Virus record (IMG/VR): IMGVR_UViG_3300045738_001212
Span: 93,998 to 157,997 of that record
DNA from: a virus
Reading direction: 5' to 3' (one strand)
Length of the DNA: 64,000 nt
The position numbers and the translations under genes were made by a program. Positions 28,940-48,906 of this stretch are shown piece by piece; position 1 is the first letter of the stretch, and each line of letters begins with the position of its first letter. Under the pieces are notes generated by a model, which saw only the letters and a program-made list of their open reading frames with translations, made no database searches and was not told the origin of the DNA.

Positions 28940-29573
28940 GCACCTACTTAGATTCGACAAGTCTAAGACTTATGTATTCATAGATTGCGAGACGTTCAAC
29001 CTGTGTCTAAACAAGGTCTATAATCTTCCTTGGCAAATAGCGATGATCAAGGCTGTTGCTGGTAAAAAAATTGCCGAAAAGAACTTCTATATTAAATGGA
29101 AAACAGACCTGAAAATAGGAGACGAAGCCGCTAGGATTACCCGCTATAGCCAAAAAACGATGGACGAGAAGGGCATCTCTCCAGAAGAAGCTTTCCCCAC
29201 GATACGAGACTGGTTGGATAACTCTGATTGGATAATCGCTCATAACATGCTGGGGTTTGATCTTTACCTAATAAAGGACTATTACAGGCTGAATAACCTT
29301 GATTATAAGCACCTGATGCCCAAGATTCTTGACACCAACTCCCTCGCTAAGGGTGTTAAGCTTGACATCCCCTACAAGGAGGATGAGGGGTCTTTAATTG
29401 AGTACCAGTATAGGATGACCAATATGCGTAAAAAGGGCGTTAGAACGAACCTGATGGCCTTGGGGAGGGACTATGACATCGAACATGACAGCGACAAACT
29501 CCACGATGCTATAGTAGATTTGGAACTTAATCTGAAAGTCTGGAACAAGCTAAAATGGCAGATAGAAATATAA
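28932..29573 (+). CDS. DEDDh 3'-5' exonuclease (DnaQ-like)
   Basis: FIDCET, AHNMLGFD, LHDAIVD. Confidence 0.9.
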   Translation: MREHLLRFDKSKTYVFIDCETFNLCLNKVYNLPWQIAMIKAVAGKKIAEKNFYIKWKTDLKIGDEAARITRYSQKTMDEKGISPEEAFPTIRDWLDNSDWIIAHNMLGFDLYLIKDYYRLNNLDYKHLMPKILDTNSLAKGVKLDIPYKEDEGSLIEYQYRMTNMRKKGVRTNLMALGRDYDIEHDSDKLHDAIVDLELNLKVWNKLKWQIEI

Positions 29574-32131
29574 ATTTTAAGTCTCACTTTAAAGGCATTG
29601 ATCTACCTATTCATGGGGTTCGTTTACCTCGGTTCGAGATAGAGAAGAAGTTCAAAAGAGAGCTCGGGGTAAGTGAAGATATTAGTAACTATGACTTCTT
29701 ACGTTCATTAGCTAACGCTGGATTTAAAAATTTAAAAATAAATAAAAAAAGTAAGAAATACAAACTCTATGCCGAAAGAGCGAAGCACGAAATAGACACC
29801 CTAGAAGACTTGGGATTTGTTGACTATGTGCTTTTAGTTTGGGACGTAATTAACTACTGCAAGCGTAGTGATATACCGACAGGTCTCGGGCGGGGCAGTG
29901 CTGCTGGAAGCCTTATCCTTTATTTAATTGGAGTGACCAAGGTTGACCCAATTGAGTACGGCCTTTATTTCGAGAGATTTATTTCAAAAATTAGAGCGAA
30001 GAAGCAGGTCGTTGACGGCATCACTTATCTTGATGGTTCGCTAATGTGTGATGTCGATTTAGACATTTGTTATTACAATCGTGGTAAGGTTATCGATTAC
30101 CTTGAAGAAAAGTTTAAAGGGAGGACTTCTAAAATTATAACCTTCAACACCCTTAGTGGGAAGCTGTGCATGAAGGAATGCGGGAAGATTGTAGGGGGGA
30201 AGACCGAACAAGAAATGAGCCTTGTGTCTTCAATGATACCTAAAGTCTTTGGTAAGGTGAAAGACATAGAAGAAGCGAACGAAGAAGTTCCCGAGTTTAA
30301 AGAGTGGTGCGACAAAAACAGGCGGGCCTACAAGATAGCCTTGAACCTTAGAGGCTTAATCAAAAACAAAGGAGTTCACCCATCGGCCCTTTCCTTATCG
30401 TATGAAGACATGGAGGACAGTTGTCCCACAGAATTTTCATCAGACAAAGCTTCCATCTCGTCTTTCGACATGAACTGGACCTCGATTTCCAATGTTAAGC
30501 TAGACTTGCTGGGACTAAGGTCCGTATCGGTAATCGATGACGTTTGCAAAAGTGTTAAAATTAAAATAGAAGACATTAATCCTAACAGCAAATTTATATA
30601 CAGGCACCTTCAAGATTTAAGAACGCCTCATGGCTTATTTCAAATTGAAGCCGATACAAACTATGGGGTTTGTAGGAAGGTGATGCCCAAGAATCTTGAA
30701 GAACTAAGCGCGGTACTAGCCCTTGCTCGTCCCGGAGCATTAGCTTTCGTTAACCAATACGCAAACTACTCAAACAACGGGGTGAAAGAATCCATACACC
30801 CATTCTTTGATGACATTTTGGCGTCAACTGGTGGTGTTTGTTTATATCAAGAGCAGATGATGCAAATGGCTCACAAGGTTGGGTTCACGCTTGACGAAGC
30901 TGAAATTCTACGTCGTATCGTGGGCAAAAAGAAAGTTACTGAGGTACGCAAGTGGAAGAAGAAAATTAAAAACAAAATCACAGAGAAGAAGCTCGATTCT
31001 GAGATCGGTAAAATCCTCTGGAAAATCCTTGAGGATTCAGCCAACTACTCTTTCAATAAGTCCCATTCTATTTCATACGCCGCGCTTGCCGCGACGACGA
31101 TTTATCTTAAGTTCAAATACCCTATGGAATTTTTCTTAAGCCTGTTGCGTATGACCAGACACGAACCAGACCCGATTAACGAAATTTCCAAAATCCAGAA
31201 AGAGATGCACAACTTTAATATAAAGTTACTGCCTCCTCATATCACAAAATCACGGATGGATTTTATGTCTGAAGGCGAAGATATTCGATTCGGACTACTC
31301 TCGATTAAGGGAATTTCAGATAAGTCTATAGAAAAACTAAACAGGTTTAAAAGAGACACCTCCACAAAGTTCGAGGTATTCGAGGCGGCAAACGAAGCCA
31401 ACCTAACGATTGGTATACTGTGTGCGCTTATTCAAGCGGGGGCTTTTCAGGGGTTTGTGCAATCCAGAACCAAGATAGCATACGAAGCTCAACTTTGGAA
31501 TGTCCTTACCCAAAAAGAAAAGAAGCTCTGCATAAGCCTATCTAAAGAACACAGGCACGATCTGGTTGCCGTTCTTAAAGACATCTTAGGCAAGAAAAAC
31601 GAAAAAGGGAAACCCCTTATTAAGCCTTCTCGTTTTGAGACTATCCAAAGAAAATCTCAACCTTACAAGGAAATTTTTAACAAGAACAGGTACTCTGAAA
31701 GCTTTGCGAATTGGTACTACGAAAATCATTTACTAGGATACACCTACGGAAAGACCCTCAAGGATATTTTCGCTAAAGAAAGACCCAACTTGCTTTCCCT
31801 TAGCTCAGTCAACGCCAGAACTAAGGGGGCAGAGGTAGAGTTTATTGCTCCCGTTGGGAGTAAGCCAGCCACGCGCATGTCTAGAAACGGCAACCGTTAT
31901 CTTGTCATGGAAGTCCAAGACGAAACAGATAGAACGAAGGTAATGATATTCGGTGACAGACTGGATGGGTGCGAAGAAACGAACGGAGGTCTTCCTCAAG
32001 AAAAGAACATTGTGATAGTCACGGGGCAGAAACAAGATGACAACACGGTCTTTGCCAACTCCATCACTATCCAGACAAATAAAATTTACACCCGCTATTC
32101 TGAAATAGAATCAGAAAGAAAACTTAAGTAG
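29555..32131 (+). CDS. dnaE: DNA polymerase III alpha catalytic core lacking PHP
   Basis: GRGSAAGS, FERF, DVDLD, KLDLLGL, YQEQ, YSFNKSHS, IRFGLLSIKGI, C-terminal OB fold. Confidence 0.93.
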   Translation: MADRNINFKSHFKGIDLPIHGVRLPRFEIEKKFKRELGVSEDISNYDFLRSLANAGFKNLKINKKSKKYKLYAERAKHEIDTLEDLGFVDYVLLVWDVINYCKRSDIPTGLGRGSAAGSLILYLIGVTKVDPIEYGLYFERFISKIRAKKQVVDGITYLDGSLMCDVDLDICYYNRGKVIDYLEEKFKGRTSKIITFNTLSGKLCMKECGKIVGGKTEQEMSLVSSMIPKVFGKVKDIEEANEEVPEFKEWCDKNRRAYKIALNLRGLIKNKGVHPSALSLSYEDMEDSCPTEFSSDKASISSFDMNWTSISNVKLDLLGLRSVSVIDDVCKSVKIKIEDINPNSKFIYRHLQDLRTPHGLFQIEADTNYGVCRKVMPKNLEELSAVLALARPGALAFVNQYANYSNNGVKESIHPFFDDILASTGGVCLYQEQMMQMAHKVGFTLDEAEILRRIVGKKKVTEVRKWKKKIKNKITEKKLDSEIGKILWKILEDSANYSFNKSHSISYAALAATTIYLKFKYPMEFFLSLLRMTRHEPDPINEISKIQKEMHNFNIKLLPPHITKSRMDFMSEGEDIRFGLLSIKGISDKSIEKLNRFKRDTSTKFEVFEAANEANLTIGILCALIQAGAFQGFVQSRTKIAYEAQLWNVLTQKEKKLCISLSKEHRHDLVAVLKDILGKKNEKGKPLIKPSRFETIQRKSQPYKEIFNKNRYSESFANWYYENHLLGYTYGKTLKDIFAKERPNLLSLSSVNARTKGAEVEFIAPVGSKPATRMSRNGNRYLVMEVQDETDRTKVMIFGDRLDGCEETNGGLPQEKNIVIVTGQKQDDNTVFANSITIQTNKIYTRYSEIESERKLK

Positions 32132-35100
32132 ACGAGCCGATAGGAACCGACCCCCCCGCTTCGTCAGGCGGTCTTAGAATCGTCTTTTCGGCTGACACGA
32201 TTCCTTGTTCAATGTCATTGACGGTTGTTCCTTTCGGGACCACATATCCTCCTCCGGGGAAAAAGTTATGTCCGACTTCGCCTCTTCGCATCCACTCTCT
32301 ATTTATTGTGGGGTCGGTAACTACGCCATCGTAAAACATCCAATGCTGGGTTACCACGTAGTGTCTTTGCGTGAAGATACTAGTGTCGTCGTTAGCCGTG
32401 GGTTGTCCAGCGGCAGCAGAACAAAGTAAAGCACTGACCGGATAAGTTTGAGAGTCGCTAGTCGGCAAACTTTCCCAAGATAATAAGTGGCCATTAAAAT
32501 GATGAAGATCGCTTATGGTTGGCCACAAATATCTATTGTAATAATAGGGAGCCCCCCTATATAAGTCATGATAGTTATGCATCCCGCTACCCATCGTTAC
32601 CAATTCATTAGCTCTTACCTGCATCCTTGAAGGAGCAAAGAGGATGTCTTTCGTTACGGGGGCAAAGTCTGGATTAAACAGGCCGAATTGGGCTTCGTAT
32701 GCATCACCAGTCGGGAATGTAACCCCATCTCTCTTGATTACTTCTGAGGCGTAGTGAGGGTAGTCCAAGTCATTTAGGTCAGGGTCTTCTGATACGTCTT
32801 CCATCACGATACCCTCGGTATATATCGAAGCCTCCTGTTGATGTTGGTATTGCAGGTATCCCGAGACTTGACACGCTCCGCTTTGTTCCATTGCGAAATA
32901 AGAATCTACAGGCATTCTTCCAAGTCCATCTATTTTTATGTCTGTGATTAGAATTTTTATTCTTGATGTCTCTTTCCATCCCGATACGGGTATTAAAAGA
33001 CTAGCGTCCGTTGGGTCTGGCGTCGTAGGCGTTGGAGCGCAAAGGCTTATCTCAACCCCTTGGAAACTTGCGTTAGGCTGTCCGGTCTCGGCGGAACCAT
33101 GCACACCACATGTCCAAGATACCCCATTGGGCAGATGATTCGAGCCATCACCGGGGCACGGCCATTGGAGGGTGGCATTATCCACGGCGAGTGCCCAACA
33201 TGATGCTTTCGAGTAATCGTAATGATTAGGGATATCATCCTTATTTCCAATCAACCAGTGCGTATTGCCACCGGGCACATCTGTACGTCCGAACATACTG
33301 ACTCCATTTTCTGAGTCCACCATGTCCCACTCTGTCTGTGAATAATTGAGGTAATCATAAGCGAGTCTCCAGTATCCATTAAGCGATTCATCTTCAAAGC
33401 CAACAGACTTCAAACATCCAGCGCAACTTCCGGGTATGAATTCAGGAGTGGTAGAAGTAGTGGTAGTAGGGGGGGTGGGATCGACAGTGGTTCCCACCGC
33501 TCCTCCGACAGCTATCCTTGCTCCGTGTTCGAGTAGTGTTTCCCACCGAGTCCCGCCAGCATGAGATTTATAGGCCCACGGTTGGGTTGGTTTTTCAAAC
33601 ACGATACCATCTGCGATGGGGAACGCCCCCTCGAAAGAAAGTGTTTTTTCGTCTATCCATGATTCCTTAAACAACTCGATAGGCTTATTGTTTGGGTTTC
33701 CGTATACCGCCTCTACTCCCTCTGGCAACTCCTCCATCCCTACGCGAGCAATTTGGTCTGTTCCAGTCAAGTAACACAAGACTACCTGCTTGGCCCAGCC
33801 CATTCCTGCCAACGAACCACCACCCCCGTCATACATGGACATCTCACCTATCGTCCCCACTCCGGTTGGATCATAGACTCTCCCCTCTGTGTCCTCTGAT
33901 ACGTAGTCGGGTGCCCTAATGTGTATATCGACTTCAGTTGGTCGAATATTAAATAAGTATACCCTTGATTCCGCTTCTCTTAGGGTAGGATATTCGTCGA
34001 AGTAAGGGCTTGTAGAAAAATCCATAGGGCATCTAAGATAGTCATCCATGCCGTAGTGTCCCGCCTCGCCCTCGCAATTAATTGTTGCGCTCTCGTCGTT
34101 TGGACAACACAACCCCGGAGAATCGTCAATTGGGCTTTTGCTGTAAGGGTGAATCCATTCGTGACCATCTCTTTCGCAATATTCCTGCGAACCTGTCCAA
34201 TAATGCCCGTGCCAAGTGCAATCACCTGCTTCTGTGTAATAGGGGGATGAGCATCTCCCCATCCGGGCTTCCCAAACCTTATCATGGTAGTCGCAATCTT
34301 CCTTGGTTAAGTATTGCTCGTCCGAGCATACCCAGATTTCATAAAGCTCCCTGTTCTCATCGCAAAAATATCCAGCATCATTGCCTGTTGCCGGGAGCCC
34401 TTCCAGATCAATTAAAGAATCGAAGTTGCCAGCGTAACCATTCGCGCCATAAAGACACCCAGACCTTAACCCCACCCAATGATCACCATATATTTTTTCT
34501 GGATGGACCAGCGGCCCTTCGATGACCTTACACGCTTCACTTTGTATCGCGGGCTGTTGCCCGTCCATGACGTAAGCATCTGCACATTTCTCGTAGTTCT
34601 CGTGGTAGGTTCCTGTCACATGAGAAGAACTACTCATTGGCCACCAGTGGACAGGATCAAACGACATAGACTCTGGCCCATAGTCTACTCTATCCATGTT
34701 TTGGCTAAATGTCCCCCCTCCTCCCTGATCGTAGCTACATAGAAAATACGCTTGGTTCCCGTAAGAGAAAGCGGTGTTGAATTCCTCGAAATCTTGCAAT
34801 AAATTTTCTAACCTGTAGGAAGGCTTGGCGTACCTAGTTTTTACCGGGAAATCGTATTTTGAATAGCGACGGTATCCACCATAAGTTACTGAAGCTTTTA
34901 CCTCGTAATAGTCATCTTCTAGGTCATTGTCGTAGTGGCTTTCTTCCGTCTGGTATTTGTAATATTGCGCCCTTGCAAATTTGTTTCCCCCATCAATGAC
35001 CACTTGGGTTGGCTTGGTTTCGATATAGCTCGGTTGCCATATGTAATTAGCGTCTTCGCATGTATATCGGGTGACGTAATCATGCATTGGGTTCGCGTCT

Positions 35101-38100
35101 TGGTCACCGCATCCAGTTATAGAATAATATGTCTCAGTGGTGAAATCATTTATGTTTCTTCCTGACGCTAGATCAACATCTATGGTTATAACTTGGTCAG
35201 CAGCCGGATCAGGACCGAAGCTACTCAATACGGCTTCTTCTGTAACGTAATCAACATTGACTAAGCCAGACCAATTATAGTCTTCGTTAACACTCTTAAA
35301 CTCCGGCAAAGTCGAGCCTTCTTTGGTGAGCTTTTTGGTCCAAGATACATTTCCGTATGTGTCAACAAACCCTCCAGAAACGAAATCTTTCATTGCCCAC
35401 TCTTCAACTTCCACGTTAAATGATACATGCCAGAGGAACCCACTGATTTCTTTGTCCTCCTCTTCTTCTGGATAGGTTGTCGCGTGAGCCCCAGAAGCGT
35501 TTGGATATAAAAAAGTATAATGAGTGCTTGCGTATGGTCCCCTCCAATATCTTGGGGGGTTTTCTGTTCTTTGTTTCCCCTCTAACTCAAGCCACCCCCG
35601 TTCCTCTGGCCATATTCCAGTGTCCCACGCTATGTCCCTGTGATAATGGTAATCGCAGTCATAAACCTCACAATATGCCCACCAGCTTGAGCATTGCTCC
35701 CAATTACATGCTCCGGGAGATGAGCTATTATAGCCCCCATACTGTGTTGCTTCCGATCCATCTGGACAGGGTAACGGGATAGCGTTTTCGCCACACTCTT
35801 CCATCTCAGGAGGTATTGGCGTGGTAGTGGTGGGTTCATTTGCGGGATCGTATGAGGTCGTCGTTCCGTAAGGGTCAGCCGAGGTAGTAGTCCCTTGGTA
35901 ATTCGGATTGTCGGGATTTAGGGGGTCGCAATCGTCAGGGTTAGAAACATTAGCGCAAGGATCGAGAGTCGTAGTCGTGCAAAGTTTGTCGTATGGTGGC
36001 CCCCCATCCCAGTTTCCGGGAGGTGGGCCGTGGAACGGTGGGGTAAATCCGACATCACAACACTTACTTATGTGTGGATAGTCGGCAAGGAAACCCGCCG
36101 TATTTGTCATGCAGTCTAGTCCTACGTAAGGAAAATCTTCATGGACATCTCCTTCTCCGCTTCCTATCCAGTAATACGTGACCTGACTATCTAGATAATG
36201 CTTACACTCGTTATTCCATTGGTGACCAGTGTGTACGTGCATACAAGAAACCGACTCTCCCGCCGCGTCTCCCGTTATCTGCATCCACCCCGATACAAAG
36301 GTGTGCCAATAGTCGCCTCCCCACTCACCTATGATCGTATTCTGCCACAGTCCTTCCGCTCCCGTTACTTCTGTGTATCCGCTAAGGAACAGTATTGCGC
36401 TTTCGTTATTGGCGATCTCAGGGTTGGTAATGTTTTTATAGTCAACGGTGTGGAACTGATAAGGAAACGTTGCGTTGTCCCGGAACTCTTTGGTAACTGG
36501 TATGTCCTGACAGTTGTCTCCCATTCCGAAGAATTTCTGTGGAGTGATTATCTCTTGGCCCATAGAAAACGGATCAGGAGGCAGGGGGTCTGGTGGGGAA
36601 AAATGTTGAGAGTAGCTTCCCATGTACGACTGATATGTCTGTGGAAATACGGAAGCACCTTGACAGCCAGTGAATCTATACGGATAATTTCTTTGGTTTT
36701 CTTCGTTAAAGTTATTGCTTATTTTCTTTCCTTCGAATTTTACGGTTGGACATTTTTCCCAAAAGGCTGTCTCGGGATCACAAAACGATGTTTGATATTC
36801 CACGTCTATGAGAGGGAGATTCCAACCACCTGTCCTATGAAAATAAAAAGACCCGTAGGGGTCTTGTGCCCATCTATACATCCACCCCGGAAAGAGGTTG
36901 ATGGATGCCTTTTGCATTTTTGTTTTATTCTCTATGTATACTTGGGCGTACACAAATGGGCCACCAGCAAAATCGCTATACGACAACCTGTCAGTATGCG
37001 ATATGTATCTGCTATAGAAAGGTTGAGGAGGTCCACATGTGCCAGCGACAACCCCCGCCGTAGCTGGCCCATAATGGAAAGCTCTTCTTCCTAGATTCTT
37101 GAGGTCACCTATCGGATTAGTGTAATGCTGAAGGTATGATCCACTTAGCCTTTCCTCAGTGAACCCTAGTGGACACAGAACAAATCCTGTCCATTTAATT
37201 ATGTTGCTGTTTTGCCAATAAGTTTGCGAGGTGCCCATATCCTTATTGATATGGTGGTGCCTGAAACTCATGCTTTCGACTGCATTATAATCGTCGTAGA
37301 TGCCCATCCCGACCATATCGTTACTTCCCGGAAAAGGAGACGGCCCCGGCGAGAGAGGGTTTTCGCAACTCTCTCTCCACACTCCAGCTTCGGCCCAATC
37401 GTGGTCAGATGAAAATTCTTCAGTTGTCCAATACTCTTCAGCGTCTGCCCATGTAGAGCCAGCAGCTTCACAAGTTTCTTTGGTTGTATATTGGCCCTCC
37501 CAACAATAATGAGCAGCTTCACAAGCCTCTTTGGTTACGTGTTGGGAGTCCGAGCAGTAACCAGCAGCTTCACAGCCAGCCTTATTGTTATCAAACGCAG
37601 AGTCCGTGCAAGTACCTACATCCTCGCAAGTTTCTCTGGTCGTGTATTGGGTATCTGAACACCGAGCAGTCTCACATTCAGTCTTGGTGGCCGTATACTC
37701 CCCTTGACATCCGTTTAAAGTAAAGCAACTCTTCGGTACAGTCCATTCACCCCCGATAGCGTCGCATTCTCCTGTGGTGTTGTAGTCAGGCCAAAGATAA
37801 CCTATTTTCCACGATCCACCATTGTTTACGCAATCCTCTTTGTTATTGTCTACGGAACCGAGACAAAAACCATCCTCGTGATGGCACAATGTCCTAACAA
37901 GCTCAGGGCATCCTCCGTACCAACGAGACCCGTGGACCTCGTGCGCGTGTACAAATGCATATGGTTCGTAAACTGAAGAGTCCGAAACGTCATGATACCA
38001 CGAAGGATAAGAATAATAATCAGTAAGCCATCTTCCGTCTATGCCCGTGTAGGTTTTTAGGGATTCATACGTATCTCCGAGGTAGTCAGCAGAGGCTGGA

Positions 38101-39158
38101 TAATTCCATATTGTTTTATCTGTAATATATTTTGTAGCTCCTTCGTCGTAAGTACCAGACACGGGAGGAGACTCTACAAACTTCCTTTCAAATGAAGTCC
38201 CGGTTATGGGAGCAATGGTGTAGGCTTCATCAAGGCACGGGAATTTAATTGGTCCTATGTTATCATACCCCGTTACTACTCCTTGTGGATTTGTTTTTGA
38301 AATTATCTTGTCTTCGCACGGGGGGGTGTACCACCACCAAGTTGGGTCGTATAATATTTCTCCCTTAATTGAGTAGGTAGCAAGCTCGGCGTCTTTCATG
38401 AGTTGGGGGTCGATAGGCTCCCCAAAAATTTTTGTTACGTCTTCGTAGCCGAACATGACAGCCGGAGTCGGTATTGTGGCCTCAGAAGTAATTGAAATCT
38501 CTTGAAACATTGGCGTCCAGTTGGTCGTCAATATCCTCTTAAAAACATCAGAAGATATATGCACTGGCGACATCGGAGACGCTGCTGCCCCATATTCCGT
38601 GTAATACGTATGAAGAAAAGCGGAAATTTTAGCGTAGACATGAAGGTGAATCATGTTGTTGTTCACCCCCTGTGAAGCCATCGACCCCAAACACGAAACG
38701 ATAGCTACTGAAAAATCTTCCCGAGCCTGAGTGGTTCCCCCCGACATTCTGGAAAGAACAAATTCCCTATGCGCCCCGAAGACCGAACCTTCATTAAACC
38801 CCTTGGATTGAGTTAACGCATTCCATTGCTCGTCTTTTTTTGTTACTTTCTCAAGATTTCTCAAGGGAGAGTTTGGCGACATATCTTCTACGATACTGAA
38901 ATAAGCAGCCTGAAGAACCCGAGTTATCCGGTCAAGAATCTCATGCTTACTCTTGTGACCAGCGTATGTGGATGCGTAATAGCAGACAATTAACGAGCTC
39001 GCTTTGCCCAAGGCTTGGCTCATTGCTTCTAGGTCAGGATTTCCAACTCCTTTTGCTCTATCTCCATATCCTTGTCTCCTCAAGGTAGCATATTCGTTAC
39101 TTTGCTCACTTTTACTGAGCCAAGAACTCATTTTCAGGGTTGGATCATAGCTTCCCAT
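32124..39158 (-). CDS. giant Cys-rich probable virion/fibre protein with nested C-C-W modules
   Basis: 2344 aa; about 11 C-x9/10-C...W modules; Thr/Pro-rich linkers; many S/T-G. Confidence 0.75.
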   Translation of the reverse strand: MGSYDPTLKMSSWLSKSEQSNEYATLRRQGYGDRAKGVGNPDLEAMSQALGKASSLIVCYYASTYAGHKSKHEILDRITRVLQAAYFSIVEDMSPNSPLRNLEKVTKKDEQWNALTQSKGFNEGSVFGAHREFVLSRMSGGTTQAREDFSVAIVSCLGSMASQGVNNNMIHLHVYAKISAFLHTYYTEYGAAASPMSPVHISSDVFKRILTTNWTPMFQEISITSEATIPTPAVMFGYEDVTKIFGEPIDPQLMKDAELATYSIKGEILYDPTWWWYTPPCEDKIISKTNPQGVVTGYDNIGPIKFPCLDEAYTIAPITGTSFERKFVESPPVSGTYDEGATKYITDKTIWNYPASADYLGDTYESLKTYTGIDGRWLTDYYSYPSWYHDVSDSSVYEPYAFVHAHEVHGSRWYGGCPELVRTLCHHEDGFCLGSVDNNKEDCVNNGGSWKIGYLWPDYNTTGECDAIGGEWTVPKSCFTLNGCQGEYTATKTECETARCSDTQYTTRETCEDVGTCTDSAFDNNKAGCEAAGYCSDSQHVTKEACEAAHYCWEGQYTTKETCEAAGSTWADAEEYWTTEEFSSDHDWAEAGVWRESCENPLSPGPSPFPGSNDMVGMGIYDDYNAVESMSFRHHHINKDMGTSQTYWQNSNIIKWTGFVLCPLGFTEERLSGSYLQHYTNPIGDLKNLGRRAFHYGPATAGVVAGTCGPPQPFYSRYISHTDRLSYSDFAGGPFVYAQVYIENKTKMQKASINLFPGWMYRWAQDPYGSFYFHRTGGWNLPLIDVEYQTSFCDPETAFWEKCPTVKFEGKKISNNFNEENQRNYPYRFTGCQGASVFPQTYQSYMGSYSQHFSPPDPLPPDPFSMGQEIITPQKFFGMGDNCQDIPVTKEFRDNATFPYQFHTVDYKNITNPEIANNESAILFLSGYTEVTGAEGLWQNTIIGEWGGDYWHTFVSGWMQITGDAAGESVSCMHVHTGHQWNNECKHYLDSQVTYYWIGSGEGDVHEDFPYVGLDCMTNTAGFLADYPHISKCCDVGFTPPFHGPPPGNWDGGPPYDKLCTTTTLDPCANVSNPDDCDPLNPDNPNYQGTTTSADPYGTTTSYDPANEPTTTTPIPPEMEECGENAIPLPCPDGSEATQYGGYNSSSPGACNWEQCSSWWAYCEVYDCDYHYHRDIAWDTGIWPEERGWLELEGKQRTENPPRYWRGPYASTHYTFLYPNASGAHATTYPEEEEDKEISGFLWHVSFNVEVEEWAMKDFVSGGFVDTYGNVSWTKKLTKEGSTLPEFKSVNEDYNWSGLVNVDYVTEEAVLSSFGPDPAADQVITIDVDLASGRNINDFTTETYYSITGCGDQDANPMHDYVTRYTCEDANYIWQPSYIETKPTQVVIDGGNKFARAQYYKYQTEESHYDNDLEDDYYEVKASVTYGGYRRYSKYDFPVKTRYAKPSYRLENLLQDFEEFNTAFSYGNQAYFLCSYDQGGGGTFSQNMDRVDYGPESMSFDPVHWWPMSSSSHVTGTYHENYEKCADAYVMDGQQPAIQSEACKVIEGPLVHPEKIYGDHWVGLRSGCLYGANGYAGNFDSLIDLEGLPATGNDAGYFCDENRELYEIWVCSDEQYLTKEDCDYHDKVWEARMGRCSSPYYTEAGDCTWHGHYWTGSQEYCERDGHEWIHPYSKSPIDDSPGLCCPNDESATINCEGEAGHYGMDDYLRCPMDFSTSPYFDEYPTLREAESRVYLFNIRPTEVDIHIRAPDYVSEDTEGRVYDPTGVGTIGEMSMYDGGGGSLAGMGWAKQVVLCYLTGTDQIARVGMEELPEGVEAVYGNPNNKPIELFKESWIDEKTLSFEGAFPIADGIVFEKPTQPWAYKSHAGGTRWETLLEHGARIAVGGAVGTTVDPTPPTTTTSTTPEFIPGSCAGCLKSVGFEDESLNGYWRLAYDYLNYSQTEWDMVDSENGVSMFGRTDVPGGNTHWLIGNKDDIPNHYDYSKASCWALAVDNATLQWPCPGDGSNHLPNGVSWTCGVHGSAETGQPNASFQGVEISLCAPTPTTPDPTDASLLIPVSGWKETSRIKILITDIKIDGLGRMPVDSYFAMEQSGACQVSGYLQYQHQQEASIYTEGIVMEDVSEDPDLNDLDYPHYASEVIKRDGVTFPTGDAYEAQFGLFNPDFAPVTKDILFAPSRMQVRANELVTMGSGMHNYHDLYRGAPYYYNRYLWPTISDLHHFNGHLLSWESLPTSDSQTYPVSALLCSAAAGQPTANDDTSIFTQRHYVVTQHWMFYDGVVTDPTINREWMRRGEVGHNFFPGGGYVVPKGTTVNDIEQGIVSAEKTILRPPDEAGGSVPIGSST
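37377..37712 (-). repeat. five-deep nested C-C-W module array
   Basis: Opener units with about 51-nt period (agcagcttcaca at 37461, 37512, 37563), then five short aromatic closers. Confidence 0.75.
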
Positions 39159-39207: not shown

Positions 39208-42200
39208 TTAGACTATCTCAAGCTGACCATTATTGAGGAAATCATGGAACATTGCGTCCACCCCTTGCCGCGTTCGATTTGCCGCGTATGTTGCTGCTCG
39301 GCTATATATTTCCTTTTGATGAAGGGTGGAGTTATTAGCTCCAACATTAATCACGAGTTGGTCGAGAAATTTATCGAGAGGTTCTCCCAACATGTTTGTC
39401 GCGCACCAAATTTGGTCATTTGTAAATAGTGCTTTTATCGTTTGGTATGACCCGCCGCTGCTGTTGATTCCGGGAACTTGAATCATGGTACTCATGAACC
39501 CGTCCACCATGTTTACAAGTTCACTGGTGAACGTGAGTTCTAGCAGGTCTTGATGAGTCTCTGCGAAAACACTTGCCGATTGAGCGAATGCTGATTGCAT
39601 CATTGTTAATTCTACATCCATTCCCAGATGCAGGGTAGGGGTTAGAAAATTACAGTGTTCTGCGCCCTGACCATTACACGGAGAAATGGAGGTGTCAGCA
39701 TATCTCTGTGCAGACAAGTCTGGTGTAGCTCCATATGTGCCCTTATTTTCGGACAAGTTGTAAGCGGTTGCTTCCTGTAATCCCTGCCCCAGAAAATCAG
39801 CCTCGAATACACCACCGCCTTCACTCTTAATTCCATCCCCGCCAGCTATTGTATTCTTAATACGTCTGTAAGGGGTAGCCCACGGTCCTCTCATTATTCT
39901 GCAAGATTTCCCAAGCGCATTTTTAGACAACAACTTTTCTTCATCGTCAACCTCGTTTGAGATTTGCGTTACGAATCTGCTTCCCTGCGCTTGTCCTGCC
40001 GCCGAAAAGCCACTTTGCGCGGCTGTGCGAGCGTCAATTACGGCCTGTGCTTGTTGCGCGGCTTGTGCAGTTTGAGTTAGCCCAAGTTTTTTGGTGCTTG
40101 GAGCCGGGATGTTGTGTCTGCTGTAGCTATATTTGACATGACCGTTTATGGTTAGTAGCTTTCCTCCGGGGAAAAATCCATAATTATATTTCATGCTTAA
40201 ACAGGGATCAAAGCACTTACCTTTCAACAATTGGTCCTCATTACACCCGTAAAACCAACCGGGGTCTAAGCCCACCCTAATCGCGTAGACATACCAGTCA
40301 CATATCGGGTCTCCCGGATGATAAAAAGCAGGGCGGCTCCGATGTGGTGCGTCCACGCAACTTATTCTCCACGACCCGCAGCCTCCGGCTTTTGATGAAC
40401 CGTGCGGCCCCCATCTTATGTATCTAACGCTTGTTATCCCGCCGAACGCTTGCATGGCTCTACGTCTTAACTTCCTTACTCTTTTAACCTGTGGAAGAAG
40501 ATTATTGGTTTCCTGTCTGGCCCACAAACCATATATCGCGGGAGGATCATACATGTTATCCATAGCCCTCTCAAACCTGTGTGAGTAAAAAGATTGAGGT
40601 ATGCCGTTCCCGTTCCTGTCCCTGTTGTGTCTGGAAATTTTCCATTCGTATGCATACGGCCCAATGAGGGCAGTTCTTTTAATGCGTGTGCTATTCGGGT
40701 TCCCTCCCCAGAAATATTGACAAGCTGCTGATCCAGCCCTTAATCCGGGAGCGATATAGCTTTTGTTTTTTACTTTAGCTTTACCCTTGGCGTCGCAAGA
40801 AAGCCAATATCTCATCAAGTTTTCTACGAAATACAACATGAATCTTCCGCATGAGCCCTCTCGCCACCCACACCTTTCGCCACCCAATGAATGAGGGAAA
40901 ACCATTCTTCTTGCGGCGTAAAATTCATGTCTCATCGCCGCCTGATCGGTTGACCAGAAAAGAACATCTTCATCATCTTCTATTTCGGTGCCAGTAGGGC
41001 CACCAAGCTTTAATATGGAGTAGCGGCCAAATCTTTTAATTGCCCCCAAGTTATTTGAAAACTGCCATGTGACACCTATTCCAAAATTCTGAACCAAATG
41101 ACCGGGGCCAAAACCATAGTCGTGGGTGACATCTTGCTCATTGTAAGGATATAGTTCTCCGTGATGAAATTGTAGAGACGGTTTTACCCCATAGATTGAA
41201 CTGGTGCAGATAATAGCTGGCTCCAACGGAGCCCAGTGTCGTGTCACAGGTGCCGTTGCGGGCGTTGCGCCAACTAATCCAGCAAGGTTTGTGCTGTTGG
41301 TTTGCTGGGACACCTCTCCGCACTTGTCTGTATGAGTGGTAAGACTATGGGCTGCTGCCCCATCAAATTTACCCACCTGAATGTTACCCCCGAACCCACA
41401 CCCCTTTCCCCCTCTCTGCATATTATAATTCTTGCAAATAGGAATCTGGCTTTGACCATATAGAGCGTTTCCTTCTTCCTGTTTTAACTTGGTCCCGAAT
41501 GGAACTAGGTAACCATACTCAAACCAGCTTGCTCTTTCAGCCTTGTCTCCTTTTACGGCTGCTTGCGTGGGTGGCATAAACGATCTGGTTGTTCCCCTAA
41601 ACCCTTCTACACCGAGAAAGGAATAAGACCTACAGTTGTTGTACATGTTCATGAACTCTTTAACATGGTTTTCGGTAACTTGGTTTTTGTCTTTTTGAAT
41701 ACCCAGAAACGCAGGAATCATTCCCTTTTTAAAAAACGATGGGCTTTCTTTGTGAGCTCCCCATCCCATTTTAAGAATTACCGACCCTGCTACCCCCTCA
41801 ACTGTTTCGTACTCAAAATTGACTGAGTTCATAGGTATCTGCGCTGGAGCACCATTTCTTATAGAGAAATCTATCTTTACCCAGTCTTCCACCTGCAAGT
41901 TGACATGCTCGCTCCGTCGGAAACCAAACCTTCCAGAAGCGACACAAAGATAAAGATAATCTTCATCTCCGTTAAAACCCGGTGCCGCCGGGTGGACAAT
42001 AGGAACTTTTTCCCATTCGTCTGGGCCGACACCGAACGTCGGACATGCGCTGTGTCCGTCTCGCATTATCGCCCCTTGGACATAACTAAACTCCCTGTAA
42101 AGCCTTTTGTCGTAGTCGCTGTCCACATGTATTTGAGATGTGCCTTTTATTTTTCCGTTGTAGTCGCACAGCTTAGACCAGTGTTCTTCACCGACTTTTC

Positions 42201-45200
42201 TGCTGCCCGGATTATATTCGTATTGAGACATGTCCCACGTATAGGTCAATTGAGGGTGAATCAAGGTGCAATCCTCGGCTCCTCTTCCGCTTATCCCTTC
42301 GAGGCAACACCACGTACCAGTCACGGAAGCTTCTTGAATAAGCTCAAAATCTTTCAGGCCAGCACTCTTTACTTGGTTGAAGTTGGGAGACTTGGGGTCC
42401 GTCTCGAAAATATTACCATAGAAAAGACTATCCAATTCCGCTTCAGCAGAAGCCTTATTTAAATATGTCTTATTTATTCGGTACCATTTGTACTCAACAG
42501 GGTATTTCGGATTCCCCTCTTTGTTCGTAAGCTTGAGGTTGTTGGTCCAAAAATCAATTTCTGGATAACCCTTATTTATCTTGTCCTCTGGGATGGTATG
42601 ATAGTCAACAGCCTGACACCTGAACTTGGGCCTTTGTCCAACCTTACACGCCACATCTATCGGTTGCTGCGTAAAGATGGGTGAGAAGCAGGAGAAGTTC
42701 GGGTCCAGTTCCCCGACATCGTTATGACCGACTACCCTCCAAGGGGCAATCGGGATTTTAGAGGACCAGCTTTCCCCAGCAGCTTCACAGTCCGCCTTGC
42801 TGGCGTGACCTCCCGCGCTACAGGTTCCTTTTGTGTCCGTTGATACTCCGTAAGAAGTATTTTGTCTTCTTGGTATGTCGCCGCCGCACCCAAACTCCTG
42901 AAAGAAACCTGCGGAAAAGAAAGGAGACTGCGATATAGCATCTTTGATCTTATGTTGTACTCCCGTGATGGTAGACTTGTGGGCGTATACACCTTGGAAA
43001 TATGTCCTTGGTACGTCTGGTAAAGGGTCGAATCGAGCATTAGCTGGATTTTTTGAGCCTCGATAGTTATCTGTTACGTTGTTGCCATATATGGAATTTC
43101 CCCAATGTTCGTTCAAGCGATACCCTGACGCTGTGTCCGTGGAGAATCCGATGTGGTTTGTCGGGTACAGGTCGATGGCTTTGCCCCTTAATTTATTTTC
43201 GACAAACCTTGTCAATAACCTTGCTTCCTTTCCTGTAATTCCCGATTCGTAAAAGGCTCCTCTTGCCACTGACTTGGAATTGGACGGAGCACCAGCGTGG
43301 CTGGCATTATCAGCGACGTAGTGGCCGTATAAATTTACAAGGTCATTCCAAGCGTCGTTATGTTTCTCGCTATTGCCTAAAAGATTGTTCCCCAAGTCCC
43401 ACGAAATTTCTTTTATAAATCTTTTGTACCTATCGTTAGTGAACAGCAAGTCGTTAAGGGCACTTTTTCTTGAGTAAGATAATGCGTCAGTGCCGAACAT
43501 ATCCCCTCCCCCCGTGTCGTAAAAAATGACAGGTGAATTTGCTCCCCTCATAAAGTTGGGAAGATTTATAAGGGTTTCGTCAAAGTCCTGCTTTAGTCTT
43601 AGAAAGCTTTGTTTAAAATGAATTTCTCCGTCTGCTCCGGGAGTACTTCCCGTTAATAATTTTCGGTACTCGTATGAATTTACTATGTGATCGTAATTAG
43701 CCCAAAGGAAAAAGCCCCTATTACCAGCAAAAAATTCTCCCAAACGTTCTTCATGCTTCGCAAGCTCTAAAAGAGTTTCGTAGTGTGCGGTATCACATGT
43801 CCCGGCGGCAACCGCTGGCTCTTCATAGGGCGTACAGTTTTGTACGCTCGCTGAAAAATCTCTCACCAAGCCTACCTTGCTGTCACAAGTGCTGTACTTT
43901 CCTTCAGAAGCTTGTATATTGTCGAGGGTTCCTCTAGCCGATGTCCTTATCATGTTTAACGCGAGGAACGGGTCGTTAACCACGATGTCTACGTTAAAGT
44001 ATTCCGAACCATGCCTCAGAAGACTTGCGTCGGAAGTGCTGCCTATCGCTCGTAATTCTGCCAACGTTTTTCCAAACTCGGTTTCTATCGCTGTTGTTAT
44101 TTGCTCCTCTACCTTATCGAAGGCGTCCTTGCCTCCATCAATACAGGATGAGCAAGGGTCTATTGTGTAATTGATAGTTTTCCAAGTGACCGTATCTTTT
44201 TTCACCATGTGATAAAAATTCATAAGGTCGAACTCTTCTTCGAATACGTCATATTCAAGGTCTATATTTCCTTGTTCTTGGGCAAAAGCTGGGCCAGTAG
44301 AAGACAACTGGAGGTCTGCTGGTTCATCATCCGTTGAAGTCTTTACGAATGTCACGTTGTAACACTTATAATTGACCATCAAGGTAGAGCTCGGAGAACT
44401 AGAGCCGCCAGCTAAAGACTTCATGGTGACAGTCCCACCACCACCACCGCACTCTGTAGCCGTGTAGTAACTGTACTCGTCGTTAAATTGAGCGCACGTT
44501 TCATTATCTTTTTGTGATACCGGGCGGCTACAGGAATTAAAAAACCTTGCCCCGTAAAATCCAAACTTGCCTATCGCAGCGTAGTATGGAATATCAAAAT
44601 AATCCGAGGGACAGGCGGTAATTGGATTATCTTGGCTCCAAGGCAGGAAATCTGGAGTGTTGGGGCATTGCCTATATTCCCACATATGCTTATCGAAAGC
44701 TCCCTCACCATGAACGAGTGACGTTACCTTCTTCGACGTGGTGTTTTCTGTGTCGTTCCACAGTTGGTCGTGATTGTACCTATAAATAAAATGCCAATAG
44801 ACAAACGGATCATAAGTAGCGAAGCTTGCCTGATCGTTCACTGCTGACGCAAAGCCGTGACCCGCCCCCAATTGAACTCCCGCAAAATGGTAACCGAGAA
44901 GCTGGGATGTTTCACATTGCCTAGCTTTACATATACCTCCGTCTAGTTTTGATTCGTTAGTCCCCGCGACGGGGTAGGCCATTTCTGGGAATCCGCCTTT
45001 TATTTTATATCCAAGATATTTTGGTGCCCCTTCATAGCAAAGTTGAGCTTCGTAAACGTGAGTATTAAGCCAACCATCTGCGTCTACGGAATTTGGGAAA
45101 GGATTATCGTTGTAAAATGATCCCGCTCCCGGAGCCATGATTGAACCGGGGTGATAAGCGAACCTTTGTTCCTGAAAATAATAAGCCGGAATAAAGTCTG

Positions 45201-46155
45201 GCGGACACTCTTCAGATGGAGCATGAATCCCATGTTCGTCCCCCCTCTGTTGGTCGAAAGTCACCATAAAAGTGCCTCTAGTGGGGAAAATCGTTCTTAT
45301 CCCCCACATAAATAGCTCTTCTGGGTCGTCTAACTTTTTACAGCAATCTCCAGCCATAAAGTTGCCGAGAGCGAAGTCCTCGGCGTTCATTATTTGCCCC
45401 TCTCCAAGACCTCCTAAGTCTCCCCCGTCGGGGTCAGGGCCATAAAGACTAAGGGTCGGGACTTCTCCGTAGGGGGGAGCAAAGTATCCAGCGGGATATG
45501 TGGCGTTGTAGAAATTGTGCTCGCCACCATGCCCCTGTTCAGCAAGCCTTGTAGTCCCATGACACGTTTCATAAATATCAAACTTATAACTGGTTGCCAT
45601 GTGGAATTGATTAACGCCAGCTACGAATTTCTCTTGTTTTTTCGCGGAGCTATGCTTACCGACTTCATACCAGTCCTGTATCTTGTGTTTTTCTGTATTC
45701 AGAAGGTGAAATGCGTCAGGGTCTAGTTCCCCCGCGTTTCCTTCGAATTCGAAAGAGTCAATAGGCACTTCTTCCCAGAGACTATCGCTTTCGGTGGGAG
45801 CGGTAGCAGAACCGTGATCAGTCATGCAATAATAGAACTTAGGTTCTCCCCCTCCGGGGTCAGGCACGGAAACGAAATCTCCTTTTGCGTAGTTTGTAGC
45901 TCCAGCCCAGCCTTTCTGATTGTCGTAGCCGAAAGGAATTCCACCCGTAAATGACTTCCTGTGGACACCTGTCCAGTAATAGTCTGTGACTTTTTCGTCA
46001 GGCTCGAAGGAAATCATTTTGGGATCAACCCACTCTTTCTCGGCATACCATGTTTTTCCATCGGTCTCACAAGCCGCCTTCGTAGCGTGACCCCCTTCAC
46101 TACAGTGGCCCTCATCGACTTGTCTCGTGTATCTGTAAAAACCGGGTATTCTCAT
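39208..46155 (-). CDS. giant probable virion protein with CBM5/12-like, Ig I-set-like and C-C-W modules
   Basis: 2315 aa; WAGATNYAKGDFV...YYCMTDH...LWEEV; PIFTQQP...FRCQA...YKWYR...YLCVAS; two C-C-W modules; GTGTAA at 46193-46198 upstream. Confidence 0.75.
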   Translation of the reverse strand: MRIPGFYRYTRQVDEGHCSEGGHATKAACETDGKTWYAEKEWVDPKMISFEPDEKVTDYYWTGVHRKSFTGGIPFGYDNQKGWAGATNYAKGDFVSVPDPGGGEPKFYYCMTDHGSATAPTESDSLWEEVPIDSFEFEGNAGELDPDAFHLLNTEKHKIQDWYEVGKHSSAKKQEKFVAGVNQFHMATSYKFDIYETCHGTTRLAEQGHGGEHNFYNATYPAGYFAPPYGEVPTLSLYGPDPDGGDLGGLGEGQIMNAEDFALGNFMAGDCCKKLDDPEELFMWGIRTIFPTRGTFMVTFDQQRGDEHGIHAPSEECPPDFIPAYYFQEQRFAYHPGSIMAPGAGSFYNDNPFPNSVDADGWLNTHVYEAQLCYEGAPKYLGYKIKGGFPEMAYPVAGTNESKLDGGICKARQCETSQLLGYHFAGVQLGAGHGFASAVNDQASFATYDPFVYWHFIYRYNHDQLWNDTENTTSKKVTSLVHGEGAFDKHMWEYRQCPNTPDFLPWSQDNPITACPSDYFDIPYYAAIGKFGFYGARFFNSCSRPVSQKDNETCAQFNDEYSYYTATECGGGGGTVTMKSLAGGSSSPSSTLMVNYKCYNVTFVKTSTDDEPADLQLSSTGPAFAQEQGNIDLEYDVFEEEFDLMNFYHMVKKDTVTWKTINYTIDPCSSCIDGGKDAFDKVEEQITTAIETEFGKTLAELRAIGSTSDASLLRHGSEYFNVDIVVNDPFLALNMIRTSARGTLDNIQASEGKYSTCDSKVGLVRDFSASVQNCTPYEEPAVAAGTCDTAHYETLLELAKHEERLGEFFAGNRGFFLWANYDHIVNSYEYRKLLTGSTPGADGEIHFKQSFLRLKQDFDETLINLPNFMRGANSPVIFYDTGGGDMFGTDALSYSRKSALNDLLFTNDRYKRFIKEISWDLGNNLLGNSEKHNDAWNDLVNLYGHYVADNASHAGAPSNSKSVARGAFYESGITGKEARLLTRFVENKLRGKAIDLYPTNHIGFSTDTASGYRLNEHWGNSIYGNNVTDNYRGSKNPANARFDPLPDVPRTYFQGVYAHKSTITGVQHKIKDAISQSPFFSAGFFQEFGCGGDIPRRQNTSYGVSTDTKGTCSAGGHASKADCEAAGESWSSKIPIAPWRVVGHNDVGELDPNFSCFSPIFTQQPIDVACKVGQRPKFRCQAVDYHTIPEDKINKGYPEIDFWTNNLKLTNKEGNPKYPVEYKWYRINKTYLNKASAEAELDSLFYGNIFETDPKSPNFNQVKSAGLKDFELIQEASVTGTWCCLEGISGRGAEDCTLIHPQLTYTWDMSQYEYNPGSRKVGEEHWSKLCDYNGKIKGTSQIHVDSDYDKRLYREFSYVQGAIMRDGHSACPTFGVGPDEWEKVPIVHPAAPGFNGDEDYLYLCVASGRFGFRRSEHVNLQVEDWVKIDFSIRNGAPAQIPMNSVNFEYETVEGVAGSVILKMGWGAHKESPSFFKKGMIPAFLGIQKDKNQVTENHVKEFMNMYNNCRSYSFLGVEGFRGTTRSFMPPTQAAVKGDKAERASWFEYGYLVPFGTKLKQEEGNALYGQSQIPICKNYNMQRGGKGCGFGGNIQVGKFDGAAAHSLTTHTDKCGEVSQQTNSTNLAGLVGATPATAPVTRHWAPLEPAIICTSSIYGVKPSLQFHHGELYPYNEQDVTHDYGFGPGHLVQNFGIGVTWQFSNNLGAIKRFGRYSILKLGGPTGTEIEDDEDVLFWSTDQAAMRHEFYAARRMVFPHSLGGERCGWREGSCGRFMLYFVENLMRYWLSCDAKGKAKVKNKSYIAPGLRAGSAACQYFWGGNPNSTRIKRTALIGPYAYEWKISRHNRDRNGNGIPQSFYSHRFERAMDNMYDPPAIYGLWARQETNNLLPQVKRVRKLRRRAMQAFGGITSVRYIRWGPHGSSKAGGCGSWRISCVDAPHRSRPAFYHPGDPICDWYVYAIRVGLDPGWFYGCNEDQLLKGKCFDPCLSMKYNYGFFPGGKLLTINGHVKYSYSRHNIPAPSTKKLGLTQTAQAAQQAQAVIDARTAAQSGFSAAGQAQGSRFVTQISNEVDDEEKLLSKNALGKSCRIMRGPWATPYRRIKNTIAGGDGIKSEGGGVFEADFLGQGLQEATAYNLSENKGTYGATPDLSAQRYADTSISPCNGQGAEHCNFLTPTLHLGMDVELTMMQSAFAQSASVFAETHQDLLELTFTSELVNMVDGFMSTMIQVPGINSSGGSYQTIKALFTNDQIWCATNMLGEPLDKFLDQLVINVGANNSTLHQKEIYSRAATYAANRTRQGVDAMFHDFLNNGQLEIV

Positions 46156-48713: not shown

Positions 48714-48906
48714 ATTTACTAAAAACTTCAAAAGCCCCATACCTCCCCACCTTTCTCCCGAAGAAAGAGAGGAGTGGGAAGAAGAATTCCGCCGGGACAA
48801 AGAAGAGTTAGAGAAGAGGAAGAAGAAAGGTCTCTACAAACAACAACCAAGGAAAAGAAGAGGCAAATTAACAGAAAGAATTGCCAATCTTTTTAGATCG
48901 ACATAA
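48697..48906 (+). CDS. small charged hypothetical protein
   Basis: 69 aa ORF overlapping both neighbours. Confidence 0.55.
   Translation: MKGNDEFTKNFKSPIPPHLSPEEREEWEEEFRRDKEELEKRKKKGLYKQQPRKRRGKLTERIANLFRST

What the first reader, a model, noticed from the sequence alone, without database searches (positions are those of the whole stretch)
37377..37712. Recursively nested (matryoshka) Cys-Cys-Trp micro-domains: five openers followed by five closers
Seen: intact single copies elsewhere read GxC-S-x3-[YH]-x-[TS]-K-x2-C-E-x2-G-x2-W (e.g. GTCSAGGHASKADCEAAGESW). Here five N-halves occur in a row (CQGEYTATKTECETA, RCSDTQYTTRETCEDV, GTCTDSAFDNNKAGCEAA, GYCSDSQHVTKEACEAA, HYCWEGQYTTKETCEAA), followed by exactly five short aromatic C-halves (GSTW, AEEYW, TEEF, DHDW, AGVW). 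Inference: each module is inserted into the loop between the second Cys and the Trp of the previous one, like balanced parentheses. This would build a telescoping disulfide-stapled stalk from two adjacent tandem arrays that must expand in step. I do not recognise this architecture from described phage repeat proteins.
Basis: partly seen in the sequence, partly recalled or inferred. Interest (0 to 1): 0.9.

Follow-up and report, generated by a model that had tools for sequence, protein, structure and literature searches.

The report
Nested cysteine-tryptophan ladder finger
A giant protein of a marine phage carries a small cysteine/tryptophan building block whose front halves and back halves are stacked like nested brackets. 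This layout is predicted to form a finger whose length depends on the number of rungs, and no library I searched describes either the block or the layout, which also occurs in many bacterial surface proteins.

Summary
Residues 484-594 of a 2,344-residue ORF (window 32124-39158, minus strand) hold five C-x10/11-C "openers" followed by five short units ending in Trp or Phe ("closers"). The nested reading is supported by independent lines. In 80 non-redundant arrays from other proteins, opener and closer counts are equal in 62% and within one in 84% (13% after permutation). Branched arrays read as balanced bracket strings. Two 78%-identical TadG orthologues differ by exactly one 17-residue opener and one 5-residue closer. 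Arrays sit as inserts inside PAD and vWA domains, so their two ends should meet. Orthologues of this phage protein carry 0, 1/1, 2/2 or 5/5 rungs in the same loop. AlphaFold2 gives a confident model (pLDDT 85) with mirrored strand lengths; removing closers 3-5 collapses openers 1-3. In two genomes read with TGA=Gly, apparent Arg closers are all CGA codons, which are reassigned to Trp in Absconditabacteria; reading them as Trp restores 4/4 and 9/9. Pfam, NCBIfam, PHROGs, PDB and fold searches found nothing. Caveats: I could not inspect model coordinates, disulfides are inferred, some arrays have no closers, and function is unknown. Earlier scan notes report Cys/Trp modules on other phage fibres; I did not test whether they are the same module.

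The parts
32124..39158 (-). Host gene P0001, 2,344 aa. It has no Pfam or PHROG family. Four orthologues (32-38% identity) lie in syntenic marine phage contigs.
37809..37871 (-). One complete single module (aa 430-450), the un-nested base case
37743..37787 (-). Half module (aa 458-472): second Cys plus GGxW, with no first Cys
   Evidence: read directly from the sequence
37710..37733 (-). Base strand on the N side with Cys478 (aa 476-483). In the AF2 model it is a 6-residue strand.
37662..37709 (-). Opener 1 (aa 484-499)
37611..37661 (-). Opener 2 (aa 500-516)
37557..37610 (-). Opener 3 (aa 517-534), with an 11-residue loop
37506..37556 (-). Opener 4 (aa 535-551)
37458..37505 (-). Opener 5 (aa 552-567), the innermost. 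With closer 1 it forms a canonical contiguous module.
37449..37457 (-). Closer 1 (aa 568-570, ends W570)
37428..37448 (-). Closer 2 (aa 571-577, ends W577)
37413..37427 (-). Closer 3 (aa 578-582, ends F582)
37395..37412 (-). Closer 4 (aa 583-588, ends W588)
37377..37394 (-). Closer 5 (aa 589-594, ends W594), the outermost
37356..37376 (-). Base strand on the C side with Cys598 (aa 595-601). The W-x3-C motif is conserved in orthologues P0135 and P0136.
58597..58794 (-). Second, smaller nested array (3 openers, 3 closers) in ORF 58354-60723, aa 644-709
39208..46155 (-). Neighbouring giant ORF P0002 (2,315 aa) with two single modules (aa 18-36 and 1112-1130)

Best explanation
Residues 484-594 form a five-rung 'split-repeat ladder'. 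The building block is a module of about 22 aa: a short strand (GxC), a loop with an aromatic residue, a short helix ending in the second Cys (C-E-x-x-G), and a short strand that starts at a Trp. In single copies these parts are contiguous. In the array, all five front halves come first and all five back halves follow in mirrored order: closer 1 completes opener 5 and closer 5 completes opener 1. The chain therefore climbs through the openers and returns through the closers. Each Trp/Phe strand pairs with the GxC strand of its mirror partner. The C-x10-C pair of each opener probably forms a disulfide (inferred). Because both ends meet at the base, the array is a finger that plugs into a surface loop of a host domain, and the number of rungs sets its length. 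In this phage protein it is a lineage-specific insert in a loop that holds 0, 1 or 2 rungs in orthologues. Shown: the sequence pattern, the count matching, coordinated indels, insertion into known domains, and the behaviour of the AF2 models. Inferred: the exact contacts, the disulfides, and the role. My best guess for the role, at about 40%, is an exposed projection of variable length on a virion or host-contact protein.
For: (1) Counts. Among 80 non-redundant arrays with at least 2 closers, counts are equal in 50 and within one in 84%. Permutation gives a mean of 13% and a maximum of 28% in 10,000 trials. In TadG/vWA proteins 30 of 34 are equal, Pearson 0.97 (raw parses). (2) Grammar. If every C-x8-20-C is read as '(' and every other Trp as ')', the branched arrays in P0041, P0079, P0098 and P0030 give perfectly balanced strings that never go negative. 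(3) Coordinated indels. P0047 and P0108 are 78% identical and differ in this region by exactly one 17-aa opener and one 5-aa closer. (4) Orthologous loop. P0137, P0135/P0136, P0138 and P0001 carry 0, 1/1, 2/2 and 5/5 rungs between the same conserved flanks. (5) Inserts in known domains. PAD profile positions 8-227 and 247-394 flank the 6/6 array of P0010. vWA profile positions 1-52 and 102-170 flank the TadG arrays. This fits array ends that lie close together. (6) AF2 with a 41-sequence alignment gives pLDDT 85. Opener strands of 6, 2, 3, 3 and 3 residues and closer strands of 3, 3, 3, 2 and 6 residues match only in mirrored order. (7) Truncation. With closers 3-5 removed, pLDDT of openers 1-3 falls from 88-96 to 32-49, the inner part keeps 68-84, and the opener strands disappear. 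(8) Natural recoding. In two TGA=Gly genomes, every 'Arg' at a closer position is a CGA codon. Reading CGA as Trp, as published for Absconditabacteria (PMC8629427), gives 4/4 and 9/9. (9) Connectivity. Closers are only 5-7 aa long and closer 1 is tethered to the last opener. One-to-one pairing can therefore only run in mirrored order (inference).
Against: I could not see model coordinates, so pairing is inferred from strand lengths, pLDDT and chain connectivity. My covariation test of mirrored against parallel pairing was inconclusive. Some arrays have openers only (P0007 with 16, P0006 and P0038 with 11), so front halves can exist without back halves. Off-by-one cases exist (P0011, P0082, P0119). 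My automatic parser is crude, and outside the TadG family exact equality is only 43% before manual curation. No disulfide, structure or function has been measured. Phage proteins fold in a reducing cytoplasm, so the timing of disulfide formation is unclear.
Confidence: 0.72

Rival explanations
1. This is an ordinary tandem array of five independent disulfide-loop beads whose last copy keeps its Trp tail, followed by an unrelated acidic, aromatic linker. The five-and-five match is coincidence.
For: TRF finds a plain 17-aa tandem period. Opener-only arrays exist. The closers in this window resemble each other less than those in TadG proteins do.
Against: It does not explain the family-wide count equality, the balanced branched arrays, the paired 17-aa and 5-aa indel, the variation of the orthologous loop, or the collapse of the outer openers when the distal closers are removed.
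Confidence: 0.07
2. The one-to-one ladder is real, but it did not arise by recursive insertion of whole modules. It grew by separate tandem duplications in the opener run and in the closer run, and selection restored the balance. The 3-D form may be a stack with a returning strand, not true domains within domains.
For: The opener DNA shows tandem similarity: 24-27 of 36 nt are identical among openers 2, 4 and 5. The indels between P0047 and P0108 are two separate events about 30 aa apart. Off-by-one arrays could be intermediates.
Against: Branched forms such as (()) are most simply explained by whole modules inserted inside others. The two routes are not exclusive, and both give the same final topology.
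Confidence: 0.15
3. The segment is a low-complexity, possibly glycosylated and largely disordered linker, and the confident AF2 model is an artefact of a repetitive alignment.
For: The composition is rich in Ser, Thr, Asn and Gln. Glycosyltransferase genes lie nearby. No solved or predicted structure resembles the model.
Against: All Cys and nearly all Trp positions are invariant across very distant hosts. With the same alignment depth, confidence depends on which closers are present. Trp is kept even through a codon reassignment.
Confidence: 0.05

Closest known systems
Thrombospondin type 1 repeat (TSR, Pfam TSP_1); layered fold described in PMC2173040
   Same: A small, elongated extracellular unit whose core is a stack of Trp side chains and disulfides laid across antiparallel strands. 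An earlier scan report on a Cys/Trp phage-fibre module also named it as the closest known fold.
   Different: TSR is a fixed unit of about 60 aa with three strands, a WxxWxxW strand, Arg layers and six Cys. It is not built from split units and cannot add rungs. Pfam found no TSP_1 match at E up to 1, and fold searches found no PDB match.
Fold-back needle of the phage T4 long tail fibre protein gp37 (domains D10/D11; PMC6957217)
   Same: It is part of a phage receptor-binding fibre in which the chain runs out to a tip and returns. The domain at the base (D10) is made of two separated segments, residues 811-881 and 1010-1026, and repeated motifs line the shaft.
   Different: gp37 is an intertwined trimer held by seven iron ions. 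It has no Cys/Trp module and no variable rung number. No sequence or fold similarity was found here.
Antiparallel coiled-coil stalks (SMC arms, dynein stalk) - from my own knowledge
   Same: The same design rule applies: an outgoing half and a returning half must match in length.
   Different: Those are helical heptads, not discrete split modules, and they have no disulfides. They are not known to occur both as separate beads and as nested stacks.
Disulfide-stapled beta-helical insect antifreeze proteins (Tenebrio type, 12-aa coils) - from my own knowledge
   Same: Short Cys-stapled repeats rich in Thr and Ser that build a rigid rod. The closers' T-W-T pattern recalls TxT ladders.
   Different: Those coils are contiguous and have no returning strand. 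Here the period is 17 plus 5-7 aa with C-x10-C spacing. No fold match was found.
Cys/Trp modules on phage tail fibres noted earlier in this scan (e1-5376222, e1-3412061)
   Same: Small, undescribed Cys/Trp domains on giant phage fibre proteins next to glycosyltransferases. The same setting is seen here.
   Different: Those notes describe beads on Thr-rich stalks, not nested arrays. I could not compare sequences, so whether it is the same module is untested.

Membership tests
Cys-Cys-Trp module (working definition from this genome) | GxC-x10/11-C-[E/x]-x2-G-x2-W within about 21 aa | tested here: met
   Seven strict matches in the window and about 20 in the genome. Opener 5 plus closer 1 is one of them.
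Nested (balanced-bracket) array of that module | The number of front halves equals the number of back halves | tested here: met
   5 and 5 here. Across the family, 62% are equal and 84% within one, against 13% after permutation.
Nested (balanced-bracket) array of that module | Back halves pair with front halves in mirrored order | tested here: inconclusive
   Supported by AF2 strand lengths and the truncation gradient. Coordinates could not be inspected, and the covariation test was inconclusive.
Nested (balanced-bracket) array of that module | The two ends of the array are adjacent, so it can sit as an insert in a loop | tested here: met
   It sits as an insert between conserved flanks relative to orthologue P0137. 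Related arrays lie inside PAD and vWA domains.
Nested (balanced-bracket) array of that module | A disulfide within each C-x10-C pair | not testable with these tools
   Inferred from the invariant Cys pairs and the extracellular setting of the relatives.
Thrombospondin type 1 repeat (PF00090) | Match to the Pfam model, with the WxxWxxW strand and six Cys in about 60 aa | tested here: not met
   hmmscan at E up to 1 finds no TSP_1. The Trp spacing here is 5-7 residues and they lie on the returning side.
Known phage tail-fibre or baseplate families (PHROGs, Pfam) | Profile match of P0001 or P0002 | tested here: not met
   No PHROG or Pfam family. No tblastn match in 50,697 GenBank phage records.
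T4 gp37-type fold-back needle | His-x-His iron-binding repeats in a trimeric intertwined shaft | tested here: not met
   The segment has no HxH repeats and there is no PDB sequence or fold match. Oligomeric state cannot be tested here.

The most novel reading that the evidence does not exclude
This is a previously undescribed class of protein repeat in which the unit is split and follows a bracket grammar. The same roughly 22-aa module can be strung side by side '()()()', nested '((( )))' or branched '((())())'. This would give rigid disulfide/Trp ladders that evolution lengthens one rung at a time and plugs into loops of unrelated domains in phage virion proteins, pilus-tip adhesins and enzymes.
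Probability: 0.6. Interest if true: 0.88.

Novelty: categorically new. Interest (0 to 1): 0.82.

Why it matters
As far as I know, the standard repeat-protein classes (fibrous, solenoid, closed, beads on a string) all have contiguous units. A repeat whose halves are separated and nested, with copy numbers that must match, would be a new structural principle. It can be tested directly: predictions are cheap, and the segment is only about 130 aa. It would explain a hypervariable loop in giant phage proteins and in Tad pilus-tip proteins, where finger length could tune reach or binding. It also offers a simple scaffold of programmable length for protein design. As a by-product, the invariant Trp of the closers acts as an internal reporter of codon reassignment, shown here for CGA read as Trp.

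Tried and rejected
- **Split-chain complex prediction** (openers as one chain, closers as the other): no verdict, score 0.20 against a mark of 0.32. This is not evidence either way.
- **Covariation test** of mirrored against parallel pairing, with slid-register controls, on 56 equal arrays: mirrored scored above parallel and above the shuffled null, but a shift of +1 scored almost as high. Inconclusive.
- **Structure and sequence searches with no usable hit:**
  - PDB sequence search.
  - Foldseek against PDB.
  - VIA-align against 48,161 chains: none at Z of 2 or more.
  - BFVD.
  - ESM Atlas by shape: only weak TM 0.27-0.35 to TadG/vWA and viral hypothetical proteins.
  - ESM Atlas by features.
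- **Family libraries:** Pfam, PHROGs and NCBIfam have no family for the module.
- **Relatives of this phage protein:**
  - A single-sequence word search with the segment found one protein.
  - A scan with the N-terminal flank found nothing.
- **Literature searches** for nested repeats and for TadG cysteine repeats found no description.
- **Length variants in the wild:** I laid marine metagenome contigs on the locus. The contigs are fragmented and show no indels or joints, so nothing can be said about length variation.
- **My first reading**, a plain tandem array plus an unrelated linker at about 75%, was abandoned.

Full report
**The observation**

The finding lies on the minus strand inside a 2,344-aa ORF, P0001 (window 32124-39158). 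Residues 484-567 are five units of C-x10-C (one C-x11-C), each followed by a 4-5 residue linker. Residues 568-594 are five short units ending in W570, W577, F582, W588 and W594.

The complete form GxC-x10-C-E-x2-G-x2-W occurs as isolated single copies about 20 times in eight large ORFs of the same genome. Tandem Repeats Finder sees a 51-nt period over openers 3-5.

The genome is a 157,997-bp, roughly 91% complete IMG/VR phage record. It encodes a DnaE-type polymerase, DnaB and ribonucleotide reductase. Near-identical pieces occur in seawater metagenomes from several studies.

**The module is undescribed and not phage-specific**

P0001 and its neighbour P0002 match no Pfam or PHROG family and no GenBank phage.

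A phmmer search of 1.8 billion representative proteins with aa 425-625 gave 27 hits, all through the module. A profile of the last two openers plus the first two closers gave 301 proteins. These include TadG/vWA pilus proteins, prepilin-type proteins, PKD/multihaem proteins, PA14 proteins, a protein-arginine deiminase and phage proteins. In none of them does a Pfam or NCBIfam model cover the module.

**Counts match**

By eye, most hits already showed as many Trp units as Cys-loop units. An automatic tokeniser then parsed the proteins into runs of openers (O) and closers (K). Three layouts appear:
- strings of single modules, for example nine O1K1 in P0033;
- nested O_nK_n arrays with n up to 12;
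- opener-only arrays.

Among 80 non-redundant runs with at least two closers, counts are equal in 50 and within one in 84%. Permuted data give 13% equal on average and never more than 28% in 10,000 trials. In the TadG/vWA family 30 of 34 are equal, with Pearson r of 0.97. This is after dropping one conserved Trp that belongs to the following vWA segment.

Many of the remaining mismatches are parser artefacts: Tyr closers, a stray Cys inside a closer, or trailing aromatic residues.

**Bracket grammar**

I applied the simplest possible rule: every C-x8-20-C is '(' and every other Trp is ')'. The branched arrays of P0041, P0079, P0098 and P0030 then read as perfectly balanced strings with 5, 10, 11 and 9 pairs. 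None ever closes more than it has opened. An under-closed block is always followed, never preceded, by an over-closed one. Nesting predicts this. Independent blocks do not.

**Orthologous series**

- P0047 and P0108 are 78% identical TadG proteins. In this region they differ by exactly one 17-aa gap (one opener) and one 5-aa gap (one closer).
- A second family with conserved flanks carries 2/2 or 3/3 rungs.
- Four orthologues of P0001 itself (32-38% identity) lie in syntenic loci: GT9, GT1, a second giant ORF, the P0001 orthologue, then DnaE. Between the same conserved flanks they carry no module (P0137), 1/1 (P0135, P0136), 2/2 (P0138) or, in this window, 5/5.
- A Cys just before the first opener and a W-x3-C just after the last closer are shared with P0135 and P0136. 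This is consistent with a staple at the base.

**Arrays are inserts in known domains**

In P0010, PAD profile positions 8-227 and 247-394 flank a 6/6 array. In TadG proteins, vWA profile positions 1-52 and 102-170 flank the arrays. This fits array ends that lie close in space, which the nested topology provides.

**Structure prediction**

I built a 41-sequence alignment from the innermost five openers and five closers of homologues. With it, AlphaFold2 gives a mean pLDDT of 85 and 75 residues at 90 or above.

Each opener is a short strand at GxC plus a short helix that runs into the second Cys. Each closer is a short strand that starts at its aromatic residue. The opener strands have 6, 2, 3, 3 and 3 residues, and the closer strands have 3, 3, 3, 2 and 6. 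The lengths match only in mirrored order.

I then refolded the five openers with only closers 1-2, at the same alignment depth. pLDDT over openers 1-3 fell from 88-96 to 32-49, and the inner part kept 68-84. The three outer opener strands disappeared and only a single bridge residue remained at opener 4. The outer openers therefore depend on the distal closers.

I could not access coordinates, so contacts are inferred. Chain connectivity adds an argument: closers are 5-7 aa long and the first is tethered to the last opener, so one-to-one pairing can only run in mirrored order.

**A natural control**

Two hits seemed to break the rule because Arg stood where Trp was expected. Both genes translate only with TGA=Gly. 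Every such Arg is a CGA codon. CGA and CGG are reported to be reassigned to Trp in Absconditabacteria (PMC8629427). Read that way, the arrays are 4/4 and 9/9.

**What remains open**

- Opener-only arrays (P0007 with 16, P0006 and P0038 with 11) show that front halves can exist alone.
- Three TadG proteins without closers look frameshifted.
- Off-by-one arrays exist.
- My covariation test could not separate the mirrored register from a one-step shift.
- Disulfides are inferred.
- Function is unknown. The settings suggest an exposed projection whose length is tuned rung by rung, but this is inference. Those settings are pilus-tip TadG (PMC12075869), giant phage proteins next to glycosyltransferases, and a hypervariable loop.

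**Comparison with known systems**

The TSR layered fold (PMC2173040) shares a Trp/disulfide stack but is a fixed unit and does not match by profile. The T4 gp37 needle (PMC6957217) shares the out-and-back path but is an iron-bound trimer.

No solved or predicted structure resembles the model:
- Foldseek against PDB: no match at E of 0.001 or better.
- VIA-align: none of 48,161 chains at Z of 2 or more.
- BFVD: no match at E of 0.001 or better.
- ESM Atlas: only weak matches to sequence relatives.

**Verdict**

I found no prior description in four literature searches. I rate the nested architecture about 70% likely to be real and, if real, a new kind of repeat.

Noticed in passing
L007:3001-5793 and L008:3001-6050 (genes of P0026 and P0003): Both genes need TGA=Gly. 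Every 'Arg' at a closer position is a CGA codon (3 in L007, 6 in L008; two further CGA codons follow in L008). Reading CGA as Trp restores 4/4 and 9/9 arrays. The invariant closer Trp therefore works as an internal probe for the CGA/CGG-to-Trp reassignment reported for Absconditabacteria.
   Followed up: yes
window 46788-48713 (+) and 48906-50069 (+); L009:1-2213: A GT1-type and a GT9 (heptosyltransferase-type) glycosyltransferase sit next to the two giant ORFs. The same arrangement is kept in a related 85-kb phage contig. P0001 also has several Thr/Pro-rich linkers. Together these suggest glycosylated giant proteins, as earlier scan notes proposed for other phages.
   Followed up: partly
window 58597-58794 (-), ORF 58354-60723: A second nested array, three openers and three closers, lies in a 789-aa ORF of the same window. 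That ORF also has a single module near its N terminus.
   Followed up: partly
P0007 aa 163-432; P0006 and P0038 aa ~540-1280: Long opener-only arrays (16, 11 and 9 units) have no Trp closers. In P0007 the linkers alternate between 5 residues with Gly and 4 residues ending in Arg, His or Tyr, which gives a two-unit super-repeat. How these fold is unexplained.
   Followed up: no
P0072, P0133, P0112 (TadG-type): After the last opener, the expected closer run is replaced by Arg/Pro/Gly-rich sequence in P0072 and P0133 that looks like an out-of-frame reading of the closers; P0112 ends shortly after its last opener. These are probably frameshifts, assembly errors or truncations, not true closer-less arrays.
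   Followed up: no
window 37743-37787 (-), aa 458-472 of P0001: A half module has the second Cys and GGxW but no first Cys. A similar half module follows the 2/2 array in orthologue P0138. Its Cys465 leaves an odd number of cysteines in the region.
   Followed up: no
window 32124-32131: The 3' end of P0001 (minus strand) overlaps the 3' end of the DnaE-type polymerase ORF (29555-32131, plus strand) by 8 nt. The two genes converge.
   Followed up: no
P0010 aa 132-635: A protein-arginine deiminase (PAD) domain carries a 6/6 array of about 130 aa inserted between profile positions 227 and 247. This shows that the finger also decorates enzymes.
   Followed up: partly
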